64,000 nucleotides of DNA from NCBI GenBank assembly GCA_018715885.1, contig DVKT01000045.1, positions 5,526 through 69,525 on the forward strand. Direction: 5' to 3'. How positions within the stretch are numbered: the stretch's first letter is position 1; the number at the start of each line of letters is the position of its first letter. Origin of the DNA: Candidatus Caccoplasma intestinavium. GTDB taxonomy: Bacteria; Bacteroidota; Bacteroidia; Bacteroidales; UBA11471. Positions 23,290-38,210 of this stretch are shown here, one piece after another. The translations under genes were made by a program, and so were the position numbers. The notes beneath the pieces are model-generated. The model was given only the letters and a program-made list of their open reading frames with translations, was not told the origin of the DNA and searched no databases.

Positions 23290-23401
23290 TGTTTTTATAA
23301 AAGGACGGGGGCTTGGCAGGGCGGCAACTCACCCCCGTATGACAGTTCCCTCGGTTATCCGCCGGATTGCCGCTCCCGGCGGATCTTTCAAAAATGGTTT
23401 G

Positions 23402-23473
23402 TGGCGGGAGCGGGATTCGAACCCGCGACTTCGAGGTAATGGGCCTCGCGAGCTGCCTCTGCTCTATCCCGCT
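23402..23473 (-). tRNA. tRNA-like gene with CAU anticodon (Met/Ile2-type), atypical features
   Basis: The reverse complement folds as AGCGGGA-TA-GAGC-AGAGGCA-GCTC-G-CGAGG-CCCATTA-CCTCG-AAGTC-GCGGG-TTCGAAT-CCCGC-TCCCGCC-A. This is a cloverleaf with a canonical T-loop, but with an A1:C72 mismatch, C at position 33 and no encoded CCA. Confidence 0.55.
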
Positions 23474-32963: not shown

Positions 32964-33818
32964 TTATTTGGTGGTTGAACGCCGCTTGATCGCATGAATT
33001 TTGCGCTTTACGCGACGCAGGTCATTGTCGCAGTCGTCGATTATCTCGTTGATAGCCGCCGGATCGCTTACCCCGTTGGCGATGCACACGGCGGCGACAT
33101 CCTCGCCGTTCACAACCTGTATAGGTATGAACTTGCGCCCGACCCGGCTGTAAATCTCCTTATAACCTTTCCTGTTGGTGCGGACACCCTTTTTGATGCG
33201 TTTCTCGAGGTAGTCGGTTGCGCAAAGCATGATGCCTACACGGTCTTCGAGCTTATTGTATAGGCTGATGAAAAAGTAGAGCACTTGGTCGCTCAGCTTG
33301 TCTGCCTCGTCCAGTACCACAAGCGGTGTTTCTTTCTTTTTGAGGGCGATGATGATGTCGGACATCATTTCCGGTACTGTGCTGCCCGTCGAGTCGATGC
33401 CCATGCATTGCAGGAGTTCCACCATGAAATGCTTACGGTTCCAGTATTCGGAACACGAGAGGTTATACACGTTGCGGTTCCGGGAGGCATAGCTCTTGAT
33501 CGCTTCACTCTTGCCGCAACCGGCGTCGCCCGTAACGGCAAACACAAGGGAATTGTCCTGTGCGTCTTGCAAAAGTCCGTACATGCGTTTGTAGCCTCGT
33601 GTCTCCACTACCACCCACGCCCTCGGGTCGTAGCCTATCTGGGAGGCTATTGTACGCCACATCTCGTCGCTGATAAGTTCCCAGTTGTTATTGAGTACTT
33701 GGGAAAGGGTTGCAGCACTGACGCCGCGCATGGAGTTGGCGGCTTTGTTCTGGCCGCCTTTTATGGCGCAGAACTCGGCCAGTTTGCTCCTGATTTGTTC
33801 TTTTTCCGTTGTTTTCAT
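32964..33818 (-). CDS. MuB-like AAA+ transposition ATPase
   Basis: N-terminal HTH-like segment, Walker A GDAGCGKS and Walker B LVVLDEADKL. The gene lies directly downstream of the transposase. Confidence 0.8.
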   Translation of the reverse strand: MKTTEKEQIRSKLAEFCAIKGGQNKAANSMRGVSAATLSQVLNNNWELISDEMWRTIASQIGYDPRAWVVVETRGYKRMYGLLQDAQDNSLVFAVTGDAGCGKSEAIKSYASRNRNVYNLSCSEYWNRKHFMVELLQCMGIDSTGSTVPEMMSDIIIALKKKETPLVVLDEADKLSDQVLYFFISLYNKLEDRVGIMLCATDYLEKRIKKGVRTNRKGYKEIYSRVGRKFIPIQVVNGEDVAAVCIANGVSDPAAINEIIDDCDNDLRRVKRKIHAIKRRSTTK

Positions 33819-33834: not shown

Positions 33835-35832
33835 TTAGTACAGATTCAAGGTTTCTTCCTCTTCCATGTCCGGAACGGCAGGTTTTACTTCAACAGCCTC
33901 GATGTCTTCTATGTCATGGGCTTGCAGGCGGCGGGTCTGTTTGTGAACTTTGTTTTGTCCCCGGCTGTCGCATAAAAGCAGGCGGGCAGCAACATCGAGT
34001 TGCGGGTTGTCATTGAAAAGCTGTTCCACTTTCCGGTCCACGTCGCTGCGTTTCCGGGCGATATCCGCTTCAAGGTGTTTGTTGAACTGTCGCACCCGTG
34101 CGAGTGCTTCGGCGTCCCCCTCTTTGCGTTCGGCAAGCGCCATCGGTTGAACATGTTTCTGCTCGAGCATGAAACGCAGCGTTCCGTCCTCGTTCACCGC
34201 GAGCACATGGTCGAGATTGTCAGGATCGTACTTGACCGACCAACGGACATGCGCGTACTCCCGGAACTTGGGATCGAAACAATCGTAATCCCGTTTTATC
34301 CCGCCGATCGTCGGGCGTAATCCCGTCCCTTCGATGGCGTTGCGGAAACCGGTTTCTGCACCGAAAGCGAGTAGGTACTGTTCTTCGGAAAGGGGCAACT
34401 TGCGCTCCTCGGGCAGTTCGGCAAATAGTCTCACATATTCCGCGCGTTTCTCGGCGCGTTCCTTTTCGATGAAACTCGCGAGTAGCCGCCGGCACTCCTC
34501 CTCGGTAGGGAATTCGTGGCGGTTCTTGTTCAGAAATTCACTGTTGGGTTGGCGGTTCTTGTCCGAGGTGATGCCGAAGCCCGACCAGTTTTCATAAAAC
34601 TGGCAATACTTTTTATTGAAATACCCGAAAAACGGTTCGATAACCTTTGCCTTCGCATTGTGCGCCCGGGCGGGTGTGTACTGCGCTCCCATGACTTGAT
34701 ATATCGGGGTGAGGTTGCCCCGCCCGTAGTTGTCGCTCTGCAACTGATTGACACGGTATCGCTGTCCGAAAAGTTCGGCGGTGTGGTTCGCAGCATTGCG
34801 GAGGGCGGCTTTAATGAGTTCGTGGGTCTCACGCTCGCCGATCGCATACCCGACCGGGTAATTGAGACAGGGGTCGAGAACGATTACAATCGTGAGACGG
34901 TTCGTGTAGGTTGTAACCGTGCGCCCGTTGCGGGTCTCCGTCTTTTGATAGAGCAGCTCCGCCGTCCAGCCGTCCGTCGTCCAATACAGGAGAGGCAATG
35001 TCGGGCGGGAACGTTTCACCTGCATGCTCTTTTGGTTGCGGAACCGGGTTTCCCCGAGACGGCCGCCCGATATCAACAGATCGTATTTTTCCCGACGTGT
35101 ACGGATGGCACTTACGGTTATTTTCTTCCAGCCGAGATGCTCACCGATGCAGTTGTACAGCATGGCTACTTGCTCGTTGTCGAAATTACGAGGGTCTGAC
35201 AATAACCTGACAATCACCCCGTCCTGCTCTTCCGTGATCACTTTGGCCGCATTGCGGGTCCCGTATTTGCCTGTTACCAAAACAGGATAGCCTTCGCGCA
35301 AATACCGGTTGAATTTTTCCTGCAACCTGCGCGGGTTTCCCGGCAGGGAGTGCGGAAATGCATCAGCGATCCGCGGCAATGCCTCTGCCGCCTTGCGCCA
35401 GAACTCACATTTATTGATGCATCGCTTGCTTTGCCTGCGGTGCTGGCTGTCCGACCGTTCCAAAACGGTACGGAAGGCATTCAGTACAGCCGCATTATTG
35501 GCGTACTCGGTCTGTTTTTCCGTCGGCAAGAATTTACCGTCGTCCAATCGGTAGGTCTGGAAAAAATGCAAAGCGGCACCGTCCGGCTCTATGCTCTCCA
35601 TAAATGGTCTGCTTTCCGCTTGGGCTTTCATGTCCGGGTAACGGTGGTAAACCTCTGTTTTATATTTCAAGGGGAGACTATCGACAGCATACAAGGCTGG
35701 ACTATTATTACAACCACGACGTACACGATCTACTTTTCCTGTAGAGTTCCACCAATCAATCAAAGACTTACTAACTATGCCGTCTGTAAGTTCTGCGTGG
35801 CTGATACATAATTTGTTGTTATAGTACTCCAT
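33835..35832 (-). CDS. DDE transposase (MuA-like, rve-type core)
   Basis: 665 aa. Candidate catalytic residues are in IVLDPCLNYPVGY (D), LQSDNYGRG (D) and AKVIEPFFGYF (E). Confidence 0.85.
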   Translation of the reverse strand: MEYYNNKLCISHAELTDGIVSKSLIDWWNSTGKVDRVRRGCNNSPALYAVDSLPLKYKTEVYHRYPDMKAQAESRPFMESIEPDGAALHFFQTYRLDDGKFLPTEKQTEYANNAAVLNAFRTVLERSDSQHRRQSKRCINKCEFWRKAAEALPRIADAFPHSLPGNPRRLQEKFNRYLREGYPVLVTGKYGTRNAAKVITEEQDGVIVRLLSDPRNFDNEQVAMLYNCIGEHLGWKKITVSAIRTRREKYDLLISGGRLGETRFRNQKSMQVKRSRPTLPLLYWTTDGWTAELLYQKTETRNGRTVTTYTNRLTIVIVLDPCLNYPVGYAIGERETHELIKAALRNAANHTAELFGQRYRVNQLQSDNYGRGNLTPIYQVMGAQYTPARAHNAKAKVIEPFFGYFNKKYCQFYENWSGFGITSDKNRQPNSEFLNKNRHEFPTEEECRRLLASFIEKERAEKRAEYVRLFAELPEERKLPLSEEQYLLAFGAETGFRNAIEGTGLRPTIGGIKRDYDCFDPKFREYAHVRWSVKYDPDNLDHVLAVNEDGTLRFMLEQKHVQPMALAERKEGDAEALARVRQFNKHLEADIARKRSDVDRKVEQLFNDNPQLDVAARLLLCDSRGQNKVHKQTRRLQAHDIEDIEAVEVKPAVPDMEEEETLNLY

Positions 35833-35848
35833 GATACTGTCTTTATCT

Positions 35849-35890
35849 TGCTCCCGCCGGGGACTTGAACCCCGGTGTATGCCGTTCGGG
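35849..35890 (-). other. tRNA 3-prime-half-like fragment (T-arm plus acceptor strand)
   Basis: The reverse complement is CCCGAACGGCATACA-CCGGGG-TTCAAGT-CCCCGG-CGGGAGCA. No matching 5-prime acceptor strand or anticodon arm lies upstream, where the sequence runs into the PAPS-reductase-like stop codon. Confidence 0.4.
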
Positions 35891-35891
35891 A

Positions 35892-36611
35892 TTATTGATT
35901 TTCCGATCGAAACTTTTCTTGCAAATCAAACACCGTGTAGTTGTATTTTATCGGTCTGTTGGTTCGTTCTTGCATTTTCAGCAAACGCTGCCAGTATTCC
36001 GGCAGATAGGTGTAAATATTGCGTAACTCTTTTAGGTTCTTATTGGAACAACAGAAACAACTCACTCTATCCAATAAATCATAAAGTCGGTATCCATTCT
36101 CAATCCATTCGTATCCTTTAGAATAGCAATACTGCAACGTATCTTTTTCTGTCAGCCCCCAATCAACAAGTGGCAGACGTCTGTTTGGATGTTGATTTTT
36201 CAATATTCTGCATTGCTCGTCTGCGGCAATAGCAACATAGTAAATGTTATCTCCGATGTGCTGTTTTAGGGCTTTCAATTTTGCTGTTGTTCCCCAGCGG
36301 CAAGTGCCACCACACCAAGAATATCCCAAATGTGCTCCGTTTCTTCCGCTTACTGGTTTTTCAAAAGCGACATAATCAAATGGCATATCGGGATATAATT
36401 CTGTATATTTGATGCTATTATCTTTCAATAAAGGCAAAACTTTATCTCGAGTGTCATATATAGCTTTAAACTCTTTGCCCGTATTGTAAAAGACAACCTC
36501 ATCCAATGGCTTTTTATTAGCAATCAAAATCAACAACATAGCCAAACTATCTTTACCAAAACTCACACTGGCAATGTGTTTTTTATCGGGAAACATGAGG
36601 GATGTCATCAT
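35892..36611 (-). CDS. PAPS-reductase / PP-loop ATP-pyrophosphatase family protein
   Basis: The start MMTSLMFPDKK overlaps the upstream stop. The PP-loop motif is SFGKDS (SGGxDS-like). Cys clusters WCGGTCRW and SCFCCS are present. The gene is visibly AT-rich compared with its neighbours. Confidence 0.75.
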   Translation of the reverse strand: MMTSLMFPDKKHIASVSFGKDSLAMLLILIANKKPLDEVVFYNTGKEFKAIYDTRDKVLPLLKDNSIKYTELYPDMPFDYVAFEKPVSGRNGAHLGYSWCGGTCRWGTTAKLKALKQHIGDNIYYVAIAADEQCRILKNQHPNRRLPLVDWGLTEKDTLQYCYSKGYEWIENGYRLYDLLDRVSCFCCSNKNLKELRNIYTYLPEYWQRLLKMQERTNRPIKYNYTVFDLQEKFRSENQ

Positions 36612-37015
36612 CTTTCGACTATTTGGTTGTAAATCTTCTGTAAGGAATAAAGTACGTCGCCCCACGAGTCGAGTGTCATGTCGTCAAAAGAGGCAAGGAC
36701 TTTCCCATCGATGATGATTTTGGCCATGTTCGTGTGGCGGCTCACTTCCAGCATTACCCTTTGGCCGAACCGCTGCCGCATAATTCCTTTTCCATGATTA
36801 TATTCCGTCACAACCCCTTTGGGCATATATCCATCAGGGTGGCGTTCCCCCGTATAAATCAACCCGCCACGCTCCAATGCGGCGGCACGGAGCATTCTTG
36901 CCCGGTCGCTGTTGCGCTCGTAGTTGAGGGCTCGCCGCAAGTCATTGCGCCCTACCTTGAATTTCTCACGTATTTCACGAAGCTCTGAAACCGGCAATAG
37001 GATTTGTTTTTTCAT
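36608..37015 (-). CDS. First early-operon gene (Ner/Cro position), putative DNA-binding regulator
   Basis: 135 aa, divergent from the repressor. Assigned by position only. Confidence 0.35.
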   Translation of the reverse strand: MKKQILLPVSELREIREKFKVGRNDLRRALNYERNSDRARMLRAAALERGGLIYTGERHPDGYMPKGVVTEYNHGKGIMRQRFGQRVMLEVSRHTNMAKIIIDGKVLASFDDMTLDSWGDVLYSLQKIYNQIVER

Positions 37016-37109: not shown

Positions 37110-37126
37110 AAAAATGTTATTATTTT

Positions 37127-37819
37127 ATGAATGATACAAAGATAAATGTGTCAATACGGTTCGATACTCTTGTTAAAGCATTGGGACATACCGTATCGTC
37201 ATTCGCGCGTGCATTAGGATACGAGCGTAGTGATAAGTTGTACAACATTCAAAAAGGGAAATATTTTCCGAGTTTTGACATCTTGCAAGATATTACAAAG
37301 AACTTTGTAGATGTAAATATAGACTGGTTGATAACAGGTAATGGCGACATGTTTAAGACATGCACAACTCCATTACTCAAAGATGATCAGACAACAGTTG
37401 CGATTGGAACACGCTCGGATAAAAACGAGGGCATTCCGTTGATCCCGATTGACGCAATGGCCGGAATGCTGTCCGGTGACGATCATTCCATAATGGAATA
37501 CGAATGCGAGTATTATGTGATCCCGATGTTCAAAGGGGCAGAGTTCCTTATACAGGTTAAGGGCGACTCGATGCGACCGCAATATTACAGCGGTGATATT
37601 GTGGCGTGTAAGCGATTGCCGCTCGATACGTTCTTTCAATGGAACCGAACCTATGTTATCGACAGCGAGCAGGGTGTACTCATAAAAAAAGTTGAGGCAG
37701 GGAGCGATAACGAACACATTTTGCTCGTGTCCGAAAACAAGGAGTACAGACCGTTTGAAATCGCCAAAGAAAAGATATACTCTCTCGCCCTCGTGATAGG
37801 CGTTGTCCGTGCCGAATAA
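37127..37819 (+). CDS. Phage repressor (HTH plus S24 LexA-like peptidase domain)
   Basis: Start reset to MNDTKINVSIRF. The HTH-like segment is TVSSFARALGYERSDKLYNIQKG. The C-terminal VKGDSMRPQYYSGDIVACKR is the S24 Ser motif, with a Lys further downstream. Confidence 0.85.
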   Translation: MNDTKINVSIRFDTLVKALGHTVSSFARALGYERSDKLYNIQKGKYFPSFDILQDITKNFVDVNIDWLITGNGDMFKTCTTPLLKDDQTTVAIGTRSDKNEGIPLIPIDAMAGMLSGDDHSIMEYECEYYVIPMFKGAEFLIQVKGDSMRPQYYSGDIVACKRLPLDTFFQWNRTYVIDSEQGVLIKKVEAGSDNEHILLVSENKEYRPFEIAKEKIYSLALVIGVVRAE

Positions 37820-38210
37820 GCATTTAATTGGGCCAAAACGCGGCACAACGAGCTTACTTGTCAATAAGTCAAATAATTACAAAACAAATTAAAGCGATAA
37901 AACCCCGTTGATTTTGTGCATTATAGGGGGTCTTATCGCTTAAAATGTGGCTTTTTTGATACCGTTTTTGTCCTTATAGGGGTGTTTACATCATTTATTT
38001 TGATACCCAAAACTATGCCCAACACTATGCCCAACGTGTATTTTAGATATTTTTCCCGCAAAATGAAATGTACAATTTTTTGAAGATATATTTGGGGTAG
38101 AATATAGATTAAATAGAGATTAAAAACAGGTTTTATTTGGTAGGAGAGAATTATTATATCTCTCATAAAACGCCGAAATACAGCCTTTAAAGCATGAATA
38201 AGCACAAAAA

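What the first reader, a model, noticed from the sequence alone, without database searches (positions are those of the whole stretch)
35849..36611. AT-rich PAPS-reductase/PP-loop gene inserted between the Ner-position gene and the transposase, followed by a tRNA 3-prime-half fragment
The 239-aa product has a PP-loop (SFGKDS) and two Cys clusters (WCGGTCRW, SCFCCS). These are reminiscent of Fe-S-containing PAPS/APS-reductase-like enzymes such as DndC-type DNA sulfur-modification proteins or phage IbrA-like proteins.

Its sequence is visibly much more AT-rich than the flanking transposase and early genes, suggesting a recently acquired moron.

The 59-nt gap before the transposase ATG contains a perfect tRNA T-arm plus acceptor 3-prime strand (CCGGGG-TTCAAGT-CCCCGG-CGGGAGCA), but no 5-prime half. 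That is the kind of scar left by tRNA-targeting integrative cassettes. Alternatively it is a structured RNA element controlling transposase translation.

An enzyme of this family in the earliest transcribed operon of a transposable phage is a candidate DNA-modification or anti-defence function.
Basis: partly seen in the sequence, partly recalled or inferred. Interest (0 to 1): 0.62.

Follow-up and report, generated by a model that had tools for sequence, protein, structure and literature searches.

The report
Phage cargo gene plus tRNA-like leader
A Mu-like gut prophage has swapped an AT-rich sulfur-enzyme-like accessory gene into a variable slot before its transposase, and the "tRNA fragment" beside it is a conserved mini-tRNA-shaped RNA leader that related phages keep in front of the transposase gene, probably as a cutting signal for the host's tRNA-processing enzymes.

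Summary
A 239-aa PP-loop gene (35892-36611, minus strand) has the lowest G+C of 39 prophage ORFs. A 59-nt gap with a T-arm-like hairpin separates it from the MuA-like transposase gene.

**The gene.** It belongs to the large phage "PAPS-reductase-like" family (phrog_424, SspD/DndC-like, probable Fe-S). It is not CysH. Against the closest relative (flanks 97-99% identical), a 763-nt block replaces 98 nt, so it is swapped-in cargo. About 150 related transposase loci lack it. Three relatives carry it in the same slot.

**The "tRNA 3' half".** It is not an integration scar. It is a 5-bp acceptor-like stem, a GG-containing linker and a T-arm, followed by R-C-A-A, ending 18 nt before the ATG. It is conserved before the transposase whatever lies upstream.
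- Covariation is strong: 8 of 11 pairs change on both sides.
- Distant relatives have fuller cloverleaves that pass Rfam's tRNA threshold at the same position.
- No other Rfam family matches.

**Best reading.** It is a tRNA top-half mimic that recruits RNase P and RNase Z to cut the transposase mRNA free of variable cargo. Its edge is also where cargo turns over. Cleavage is inferred, not shown. An anti-defence or DNA-modification role for the enzyme is plausible but untested.

The parts
35892..36611 (-). PP-loop ATP-pyrophosphatase-like gene (239 aa) of the phage 'PAPS reductase' family phrog_424. SspD/DndC-like, with six invariant cysteines (probable Fe-S site).
   Evidence: ORF. Pfam PF01507 32 bits over residues 13-61. 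phrog_424 1e-32. PADLOC SspD 7.5e-10. AF2 pLDDT 90.9. Foldseek finds LarE-[4Fe-4S], TtuA, NcsA, TilS and CysH. Conservation.
35857..36619 (-). Swapped block relative to the nearest relative L096: the last codons of the 135-aa gene, the PP-loop gene, and the 5' two-thirds of the tRNA-like leader. It replaces 98 nt in L096.
   Evidence: blastn: window 37085-36620 is 98.9% identical to L096, and 35856-32902 is 97.0% identical. There is no similarity in between.
35848..35891 (-). tRNA-like leader (mini-TLS). Acceptor 5' strand 35887-35891; linker with conserved GG 35876-35886; T-arm 35857-35875 (loop UUCAAGU 35863-35869); acceptor 3' strand 35852-35856; G-C-A-A trailer 35848-35851.
   Evidence: Sequence. 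Model R1 matches 35841-35893 at 74.9 bits. Covariation on 22 sequences: 97.5% paired, 8 of 11 pairs changed on both sides, 0/500 shuffles reach the observed values.
35833..35847 (-). A-rich unstructured stretch between the leader and the transposase ATG. Together with the CAA of the G-C-A-A trailer (35848-35850) it forms the predicted 18-nt 5' UTR after 3' cleavage of the leader.
   Evidence: Sequence. The conserved position of the element is 8-25 nt before the ATG in relatives.
33835..35832 (-). MuA-like transposase gene (665 aa).
   Evidence: phrog_310 9e-46. Relatives at 22-95% identity.
32964..33818 (-). MuB-like AAA+ transposition ATPase gene.
   Evidence: phrog_296 8e-61, AAA_22.
36608..37015 (-). 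Conserved 135-aa first early gene ('Ner-position'), function unknown. Translationally coupled to the PP-loop gene.
   Evidence: phrog_16858 1.4e-17. Present in relatives.
37124..37819 (+). Divergent S24-peptidase/HTH repressor gene.
   Evidence: Peptidase_S24 7.8e-13.

Best explanation
Two separate things sit side by side.

(1) The gene. It is an accessory early gene of a Bacteroidales Mu-like prophage. It encodes a stand-alone SspD/DndC-like PP-loop ATP-pyrophosphatase with a probable Fe-S site. It was exchanged into a variable cargo slot between the first early gene and the transposase. Its most likely use is DNA or nucleic-acid modification, or counter-defence. That role is inferred.

(2) The 'tRNA half'. 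It is the phage's own conserved leader of the transposase gene. It mimics the top half of a tRNA precursor: acceptor stem, D-loop-like GG, T-arm, discriminator, then C-A-A.

The proposed mechanism is as follows.
- The early polycistronic transcript folds here into a tRNA-like elbow.
- Host RNase P cuts at its 5' edge, right after the cargo gene's stop codon.
- Host RNase Z cuts after the discriminator.
- This releases a transposase/MuB mRNA with a short A-rich leader, independent of whatever cargo lies upstream.
- The element's conserved edges are also the joints at which cargo is swapped.

What is shown: structure, conservation, position and cargo turnover. What is inferred: cleavage, and the enzyme's substrate.
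For: Cargo status:
- None of about 150 transposase-related loci has the gene upstream. The slot holds nothing or unrelated ORFans, and the distance from the conserved part of the first early gene to the transposase ATG varies from about 80 to 1066 nt.
- The breakpoints against L096 are exact.
- It is the lowest-GC ORF in the prophage.
- The nearest homologues sit in the same slot, each followed by a 59-nt leader.

Enzyme family. Literature: a phage PAPS domain fused to Dam gives anti-Dnd activity (bioRxiv 10.1101/2021.05.05.442762). PAPS reductases occur in Aca-regulated anti-defence operons (PMC13551039). BrxP makes phosphorothioate DNA in gut Bacteroidales (bioRxiv 10.1101/2024.06.03.597175).

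Leader:
- It is present regardless of cargo.
- Identical leader variants are joined to different cargos. L097, L103, L130 and L154 share one variant. The window and L100 share another apart from the two bases at its 5' edge.
- Covariation supports type 1 and the Y-shaped type 2.
- The covariance model hits only just upstream of transposase genes, on the sense strand. It does not hit PAPS-only phage loci.
- It occurs in 11 of 401 genomes of the order, always before the transposase where one is found, even at 22-46% protein identity.
- ARAGORN and Rfam tRNA (40-51 bits against a threshold of 29) find cloverleaf versions ending about 20 nt before the ATG in distant relatives.
- The T-loop UUCRA and the linker GG are conserved.
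- In the host, 39 of 44 tRNA genes lack an encoded CCA. All 43 that could be scored have C74, and 16 of them have CAA after the discriminator, as the leader does.
- A full-length RNase Z homologue is present.
- No U-tract terminator is predicted at the leader.
Against: - No RNA ends were mapped. The RNA runs that hold this window are too thin.
- In a distant hankyphage-like relative, none of the five transcriptome runs from two organisms has a contig over the leader, although two of them cover the DNA on both sides. This is contig-level, low-depth data for a different element.
- The acceptor stem here is only 5 bp, so the coaxial stack is 11 bp against 12 in tRNA.
- Type-2 relatives, including the closest one, lack a T-loop consensus, so not all variants look like RNase P/Z substrates.
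- A protein-binding operator or a 5' stabiliser would fit the same covariation.
- For the enzyme, no partner genes of phosphorothioation (a DndD/SspC-type ATPase, DndE/SspB) are adjacent. The similarity to SspD is weak (37 bits). No substrate is known for phrog_424.
Confidence: 0.6

Rival explanations
1. The tRNA-like piece is a scar: the duplicated 3' half of a tRNA gene left by a tRNA-targeting integrative cassette that brought in the PP-loop gene.
For: It resembles a T-arm plus acceptor 3' strand. Part of it lies inside the block that differs from L096.
Against: - The element stands before the transposase in relatives with no cargo or with other cargo.
- It shows compensatory evolution.
- No host tRNA comes within 9 mismatches of the 27-mer, and the 27-mer is unique in the genome.
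- The cassette carries no integrase.
- PAPS homologues in other phages have no such motif downstream.
Confidence: 0.03
2. The leader is a structured 5' UTR that works without cleavage. It could be a binding site for a phage or host protein giving translational control of the transposase. It could be a 5' stem that stabilises the mRNA. Or it could be an insulator that keeps the A-rich start region unstructured.
For: The conserved structure lies 8-25 nt before the ATG. Type-2 variants keep the helices but not the T-loop. Phage regulators that bind 5'-UTR RNA motifs are known (PMC13551039).
Against: This does not explain why distant relatives have full cloverleaves that pass the tRNA model. It also does not explain the conserved UUCRA loop with GG, or the R-C-A-A trailer that copies host tRNA gene trailers.
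Confidence: 0.25
3. The conserved dyad acts at the DNA level, for example as an operator, a transpositional enhancer or a promoter element, not as RNA.
For: It is a GC-rich inverted repeat. In cargo-less relatives a reverse-strand TAnnTTTG box lies directly upstream of it (my reading of the sequences).
Against: - Half-site sequences change freely while pairing is kept.
- G-U pairs occur on the sense strand only.
- The asymmetric conserved loop, linker and trailer are tRNA-like.
- All hits are on the transposase sense strand.
Confidence: 0.05
4. The gene is a true sulfate-assimilation auxiliary metabolic gene (a CysH-type PAPS/APS reductase).
For: The usual annotation and the Pfam name. CysH is among the fold matches.
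Against: - Pfam matches only the N-terminal PP-loop region.
- NCBIfam CysH scores 16.9 bits against a 154-bit cut-off.
- There is no ECG[LI]H catalytic motif in the sequence.
- The fold matches to CysH are no better than those to TtuA and LarE.
Confidence: 0.04
5. The enzyme acts on RNA: thiolation or another adenylation-dependent modification of host tRNA, or even of the neighbouring tRNA-like leader.
For: The best structural neighbours include the tRNA thiolases TtuA (which modifies T-loop position 54) and NcsA, and TilS. A T-arm mimic lies next to the gene.
Against: The adjacency is not conserved. Most leaders have no such gene, and thousands of homologues sit in phages without the leader. 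TM-scores are only 0.4-0.5.
Confidence: 0.1

Closest known systems
Phage 'PAPS reductase' family (PHROG 424; Pfam PF01507 members in phages)
   Same: Full-length profile match (1e-32), PP-loop, size about 230-240 aa, more than 3400 homologues, located in early or variable phage regions.
   Different: The family has no demonstrated activity. This lineage sits in a Mu-like early operon and is coupled to the first early gene.
SspD / DndC / BrxP, the PP-loop ATP-pyrophosphatases of DNA phosphorothioation
   Same: PADLOC SspD profile match over residues 11-223. Conserved cysteines compatible with an Fe-S site. Phosphorothioate systems are common in gut Bacteroidales (bioRxiv 10.1101/2024.06.03.597175).
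   Different: Weak score. Stand-alone gene with no DndD/SspC-type ATPase and no SspB/DndE neighbour. No DUF4007 domain.
Vibrio podophage PAPS-Dam fusion protein with anti-Dnd activity (Piel et al.; bioRxiv 10.1101/2021.05.05.442762)
   Same: A phage-borne PAPS-reductase domain acquired as strain-specific cargo and tied to escape from a phosphorothioate-based defence.
   Different: That protein is a 479-aa fusion with a methylase. Here the domain stands alone, and no homology beyond the domain was tested.
Plant mitochondrial t-elements and tRNA punctuation (PMC1920247)
   Same: Non-canonical tRNA-like structures containing the GGTTCRANYCC-type T-arm lie next to mRNA ends and act as RNase P / RNase Z signals. 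The element here has acceptor plus T-arm directly before a coding region.
   Different: Bacterial virus rather than organelle. Much smaller (about 44 nt, no D or anticodon arm). Cleavage not demonstrated. Linked to one gene class (Mu-type transposase) and to a cargo slot.
tmRNA tRNA-like domain and mascRNA (RF01684)
   Same: Acceptor stem plus T-arm with a reduced D-loop substitute. The only Rfam hint in the region was the T-arm of mascRNA, 17.7 bits.
   Different: No CCA end, no evidence of aminoacylation, embedded in an mRNA leader. Far below the Rfam threshold.

Membership tests
PP-loop ATP pyrophosphatase / PF01507 PAPS_reduct superfamily | PP-loop motif SxGxDS at the N-terminus of a Rossmann-like alpha/beta fold | tested here: met
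   S17-F-G-K-D-S22 is invariant in 29 homologues. Pfam 32 bits against a 22.5 cut-off. The AF2 model matches LarE, TtuA, CysH and TilS.
CysH (PAPS/APS reductase sensu stricto) | C-terminal catalytic ECG[LI]H cysteine motif and an equivalog-level profile score | tested here: not met
   No ECG[LI]H in the sequence. NCBIfam PRK02090 scores 16.9 bits against a 154 cut-off, N-terminal region only.
SspD / DndC (DNA phosphorothioation) | Profile similarity over the whole catalytic domain | tested here: inconclusive
   PADLOC SspD 7.5e-10, 37 bits, residues 11-223 against profile 1-208/277. No NCBIfam DndC hit at E < 0.01.
SspD / DndC (DNA phosphorothioation) | Adjacent partner genes (DndD/SspC P-loop ATPase, DndE or SspB) | tested here: not met
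   The neighbours are the 135-aa early gene and the MuA/MuB genes. No such partners lie in the slot.
IbrA-type (PAPS_reduct + DUF3440) | C-terminal DUF3440 domain | tested here: not met
   Only PF01507 is found in the window protein. A true IbrA-like gene exists elsewhere in the host.
Canonical tRNA gene | Cloverleaf with D and anticodon arms, detected by ARAGORN or Rfam RF00005 | tested here: not met
   ARAGORN finds none here. Rfam shows no tRNA hit at E <= 10. Only 11 nt lie between the acceptor strand and the T-arm.
tRNA-like processing element (t-element type) | Acceptor-like stem closing a T-arm with a UUCRA-type loop, kept by compensatory change | tested here: met
   97.5% paired, 8 of 11 pairs with double changes, 0/500 shuffles. 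U55, C56 and the linker GG are invariant or nearly so.
tRNA-like processing element (t-element type) | Cleavage by RNase P and/or RNase Z at its borders | not testable with these tools
   RNA data are too sparse. The host has an RNase Z homologue and mostly CCA-less tRNA genes.
Intrinsic terminator | GC-rich hairpin followed by a U-tract | tested here: not met
   The hairpin is followed by CGGGAGCAAGAUAAAG. The scan finds no terminator there.

The most novel reading that the evidence does not exclude
Transposable phages of Bacteroidota punctuate their early operons with miniature tRNA mimics. These range from full cloverleaves to 44-nt acceptor/T-arm minihelices. Host RNase P and RNase Z would excise them. 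The same elements would serve as standard 'sockets' at whose edges anti-defence and other cargo genes are exchanged. That would make this an undescribed class of phage cis-RNA combining RNA processing with modular gene swapping.
Probability: 0.35. Interest if true: 0.8.

Novelty: new variant of a known kind. Interest (0 to 1): 0.6.

Why it matters
If the leader is cut by tRNA-maturation enzymes, bacterial viruses use the tRNA-punctuation logic known from organelles. This would uncouple an essential gene (the transposase) from a fast-changing cargo slot. It would explain how Mu-like gut phages tolerate constant swapping of early accessory genes.

The motif is not in Rfam. It is a precise marker for the start of the transposition module, and it marks a hotspot in which to look for new anti-defence genes.

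The PP-loop gene is one candidate of that kind. It belongs to a very large phage family with no assigned biochemistry, in a gut phylum where phosphorothioate-based defence is common.

Tried and rejected
- Rfam scans of the window region and of 22 related loci gave only tRNA hits for the cloverleaf variants.
- Sequence searches of the PDB with the protein and with its profile found nothing.
- blastn of the region against the phage collection found nothing. A hankyphage-like leader hit only an unannotated record.
- My own ad-hoc minihelix detector was discarded. It scored about 20% positives on shuffled and on coding controls and missed the window element. It was replaced by a covariance model.
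- RNA evidence was inconclusive. Runs that hold the window give only a few short contigs. Contig gaps over the leader of a distant relative are noted but not used as proof.
- A functional link between the PP-loop enzyme (whose fold neighbours include the T-loop thiolase TtuA) and the adjacent T-arm mimic was considered. It was rejected because the two are not co-inherited.
- An intrinsic terminator was rejected.
- A host tRNA origin for the fragment was rejected.
- Pfam gave nothing for the other cargo ORFs in the slot.

Full report
**Observation**

The minus strand of 35892-36611 holds a 239-aa ORF. Its ATG overlaps the stop codon of the preceding 135-aa early gene (ATGA).
- It carries SFGKDS, WCGGTCRW and SCFCCS. 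In an alignment of 29 homologues the PP-loop and six cysteines (C100, C104, C162, C185, C187, C188) are invariant.
- Its G+C is 37.9% and its GC3 is 38.3%. The 39 prophage ORFs of at least 100 aa average 53.0 +/- 4.7% and 63.9 +/- 8.6%. It is the lowest of all. The host genome as a whole is 45.8% G+C.
- The 59 nt between its stop codon and the transposase ATG (35833-35891) read, on the minus strand, UCCCG AACGGCAUACA CCGGGG UUCAAGU CCCCGG CGGGA GCAA GAUAAAGACAGUAUC AUG.
A 5-nt 5' acceptor strand is present and begins directly after the stop codon.

**The gene**

Pfam matches only the N-terminal PP-loop region of PAPS_reduct. PHROG 424, 'phosphoadenosine phosphosulfate reductase', matches over the whole length at 1e-32.
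- It is not CysH. The NCBIfam CysH model scores 16.9 bits against a cut-off of 154, and the protein has no ECG[LI]H motif.
- PADLOC's SspD profile matches residues 11-223 at 7.5e-10.
- An AlphaFold model built with the alignment is confident (pLDDT 90.9). Its nearest solved folds are [4Fe-4S] LarE, the tRNA thiolases TtuA and NcsA, TilS and CysH, all at TM 0.4-0.5. Among viral models it matches other phage 'PAPS reductases' and QueC-like proteins.
- More than 3400 homologues exist, mostly in gut phage contigs.

The safe statement is that this is a stand-alone PP-loop adenylating enzyme with a probable Fe-S site, closest to the SspD/DndC branch. Its substrate is unknown.

The literature gives a plausible role.
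- A phage PAPS domain fused to a Dam methylase confers escape from Dnd in Vibrio phages (bioRxiv 10.1101/2021.05.05.442762).
- PAPS reductases recur in Aca-regulated anti-defence operons (PMC13551039).
- BrxP makes phosphorothioate DNA in gut Bacteroidales (bioRxiv 10.1101/2024.06.03.597175).

None of the partner genes needed for phosphorothioation is adjacent here.

**Is it cargo?**

The surroundings are a Mu-like early region: a divergent S24 repressor, the 135-aa gene, this gene, a MuA-like transposase and a MuB-like ATPase.

I retrieved relatives through the transposase from viral, genome and metagenome collections.
- None of about 150 loci has a homologue of the gene upstream.
- The distance from the conserved part of the 135-aa gene to the transposase ATG varies from about 80 to 1066 nt. 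The slot holds nothing, or unrelated ORFans of 70-206 aa with no Pfam match.

The closest relative is L096, whose transposase is 95% identical.
- It is 98.9% identical to the window from 37085 to 36620.
- It is 97.0% identical from 35856 to 32902.
- It has no similarity in between. So 763 nt of the window (36619-35857) replace 98 nt of L096.

The closest homologues of the protein (78-81% identity) lie in three other contigs in exactly the same slot. Each is followed by a 59-nt leader, and each is equally AT-rich at 36-41% G+C. The gene is therefore exchangeable cargo of a sub-lineage. It is not universal, and it is not necessarily a very recent arrival.

**The 'tRNA half'**

The 27-mer is unique in the host genome even with three mismatches. 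The nearest of the 44 host tRNAs differs at 9 of 27 positions.

The decisive result came from lining up the 100-140 nt before the transposase ATG in the relatives.
- The same element is there whether or not cargo is present.
- One leader variant (CCGAGG-UUCGAGA-CCUCGG) follows four different upstream contents, in L097, L103, L130 and L154.
- The window's own variant recurs, apart from the two bases at its 5' edge, behind a different cargo in L100.

On 22 distinct type-1 sequences the proposed 11 pairs are 97.5% paired. Eight pairs show changes on both sides (28 cells against 4.2 in shuffles, 0/500). Sliding the partners destroys the signal.

A covariance model built from 14 of these sequences behaves as follows.
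- It scores the window at 74.9 bits.
- It hits only immediately upstream of transposase genes on the sense strand.
- It gives no hit in phage loci that carry only the PP-loop gene.
- Across 401 genomes of the order it finds 11 carriers in different families. The hit again lies just before the transposase, even where that protein is only 22-46% identical.
- A few loci have two copies, each preceding a gene.

The closest relative, L096, and many others carry a second form. This is a 7-bp closing stem around two hairpins, also strongly supported: 97.9% paired, 9 of 16 pairs with double changes.

In more distant relatives the element is a near-complete cloverleaf.
- ARAGORN calls tRNA-like genes with inconsistent or malformed anticodons.
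- Rfam's tRNA model scores 40-51 bits against a threshold of 29.
- All of these end about 20 nt before the ATG.

No other Rfam family matches any form.

**What the conserved features say**

Besides the two helices, three features are invariant or nearly so:
- the loop U-U-C-R-A;
- a GG in the linker, like G18 and G19, which dock on the T-loop in tRNA;
- the trailer R-C-A-A after the acceptor strand.

In the host, only 5 of 44 tRNA genes encode CCA. All 43 that could be scored have C at position 74. The commonest trailer, in 16 genes, is C-A-A. A full-length RNase Z homologue is present (279 bits against a cut-off of 293).

So the element copies a host tRNA precursor from the acceptor/T-arm elbow through to the 3' trailer. 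That is the part RNase P and RNase Z recognise (established knowledge; for mRNA-embedded examples see PMC1920247).
- The hairpin has no U-tract, and no terminator is predicted there.
- G-U pairs occur on the sense strand.
- The asymmetric conserved loop and trailer argue against a DNA palindrome.

**Mechanism proposed**

The early transcript, which starts upstream of the 135-aa gene, folds here into a tRNA-like elbow.
- RNase P would cut between the stop codon and UCCCG, at 35892/35891.
- RNase Z would cut after the discriminator G, at 35851/35850.
- The transposase/MuB mRNA would then start with an 18-nt A-rich leader. That suits Bacteroidota, which initiate translation without Shine-Dalgarno pairing.

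The effect is that transposase expression does not depend on the sequence, structure or stability of whatever cargo is upstream. The element's conserved edges also coincide with the joints of cargo exchange.

These steps are inferred from anatomy. I could not obtain RNA ends.
- Runs that hold the window give only stray contigs.
- In a distant hankyphage-like relative, none of the five transcriptome runs from two organisms has a contig over the leader. Two of those runs cover the DNA on both sides of it. Depth is low, the data are contigs, and that leader is a different variant.

A non-cleaved regulatory or stabilising leader remains a serious rival.

**Comparison and novelty**

The gene is a new member of a known but uncharacterised phage family.

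The leader resembles plant mitochondrial t-elements and tRNA punctuation. It also resembles the reduced tRNA-like domains of tmRNA and mascRNA. I found no description of such an element in phage early operons, and it is absent from Rfam 15.

Earlier notes of this scan on other genomes reached the same reading independently of my analysis. I treat them as leads, not as support, and I re-derived the structure, distribution and covariation here.

**Verdict**

- Observation: confirmed.
- 'Moron' reading: supported.
- 'Integration scar' reading: refuted.
- 'Structured RNA before the transposase' reading: supported, and extended to a conserved tRNA-mimic family.

Noticed in passing
L296:1064-1116 and 1501-1553; L162:487-529 and 1444-1486; G204:C1:3469660-3469713 and 3471262-3471315: Some related early regions carry two copies of the mini tRNA-like leader. 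In L296 each copy sits directly before a gene (an 87-aa ORF and the transposase). This suggests per-cistron punctuation rather than a feature specific to the transposase.
   Followed up: partly
whole host genome (G000), 44 tRNA genes: Only 5 of 44 tRNA genes encode CCA. All 43 that could be scored have C at position 74, and 16 have C-A-A after the discriminator. This universal C74 without a full CCA is unexplained.
   Followed up: partly
L307:1429-2727 (G000:C47): The host itself encodes a 432-aa IbrA-like protein (PAPS_reduct + DUF3440, 3.9e-92). The neighbouring ORFs gave no Pfam match, so no ParB-like IbrB partner was detected.
   Followed up: no
window 37124-37988 versus L096: The nearest relative shares 97-99% identity across the early gene and the transposase, yet has no match to the repressor gene. 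The immunity region has been swapped as well as the cargo slot.
   Followed up: no
L104:1830-1890, L096:3890-3935, L294/L302/L298 upstream of the leader: Type-2 and some type-1 leaders are preceded by a conserved 'CATAAT...CAAA(T/G)(A/G)TAGC' module. Its reverse strand reads TAnnTTTG, the Bacteroidetes -7 box, followed by an ATG. It looks like the divergent promoter and start of a repressor-type gene. It is also retained as an apparent relic where cargo now lies upstream.
   Followed up: no
L100:3059-3936: The cargo in this relative is two overlapping ORFs of 149 and 206 aa. They look like one frameshifted gene of about 300 aa with a GDYDPSGEDI motif. Pfam finds nothing.
   Followed up: partly
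L286:1400-1486: In five transcriptome runs from two organisms, no assembled RNA contig covers the leader before a hankyphage-like transposase gene. Two of those runs have contigs on both sides of it. The data are low-depth and contig-level only.
   Followed up: partly
window 23401-23473 (-): ARAGORN calls a tRNA-Met(CAT) gene inside the prophage's late region. It is the only canonical tRNA in the window.
   Followed up: no
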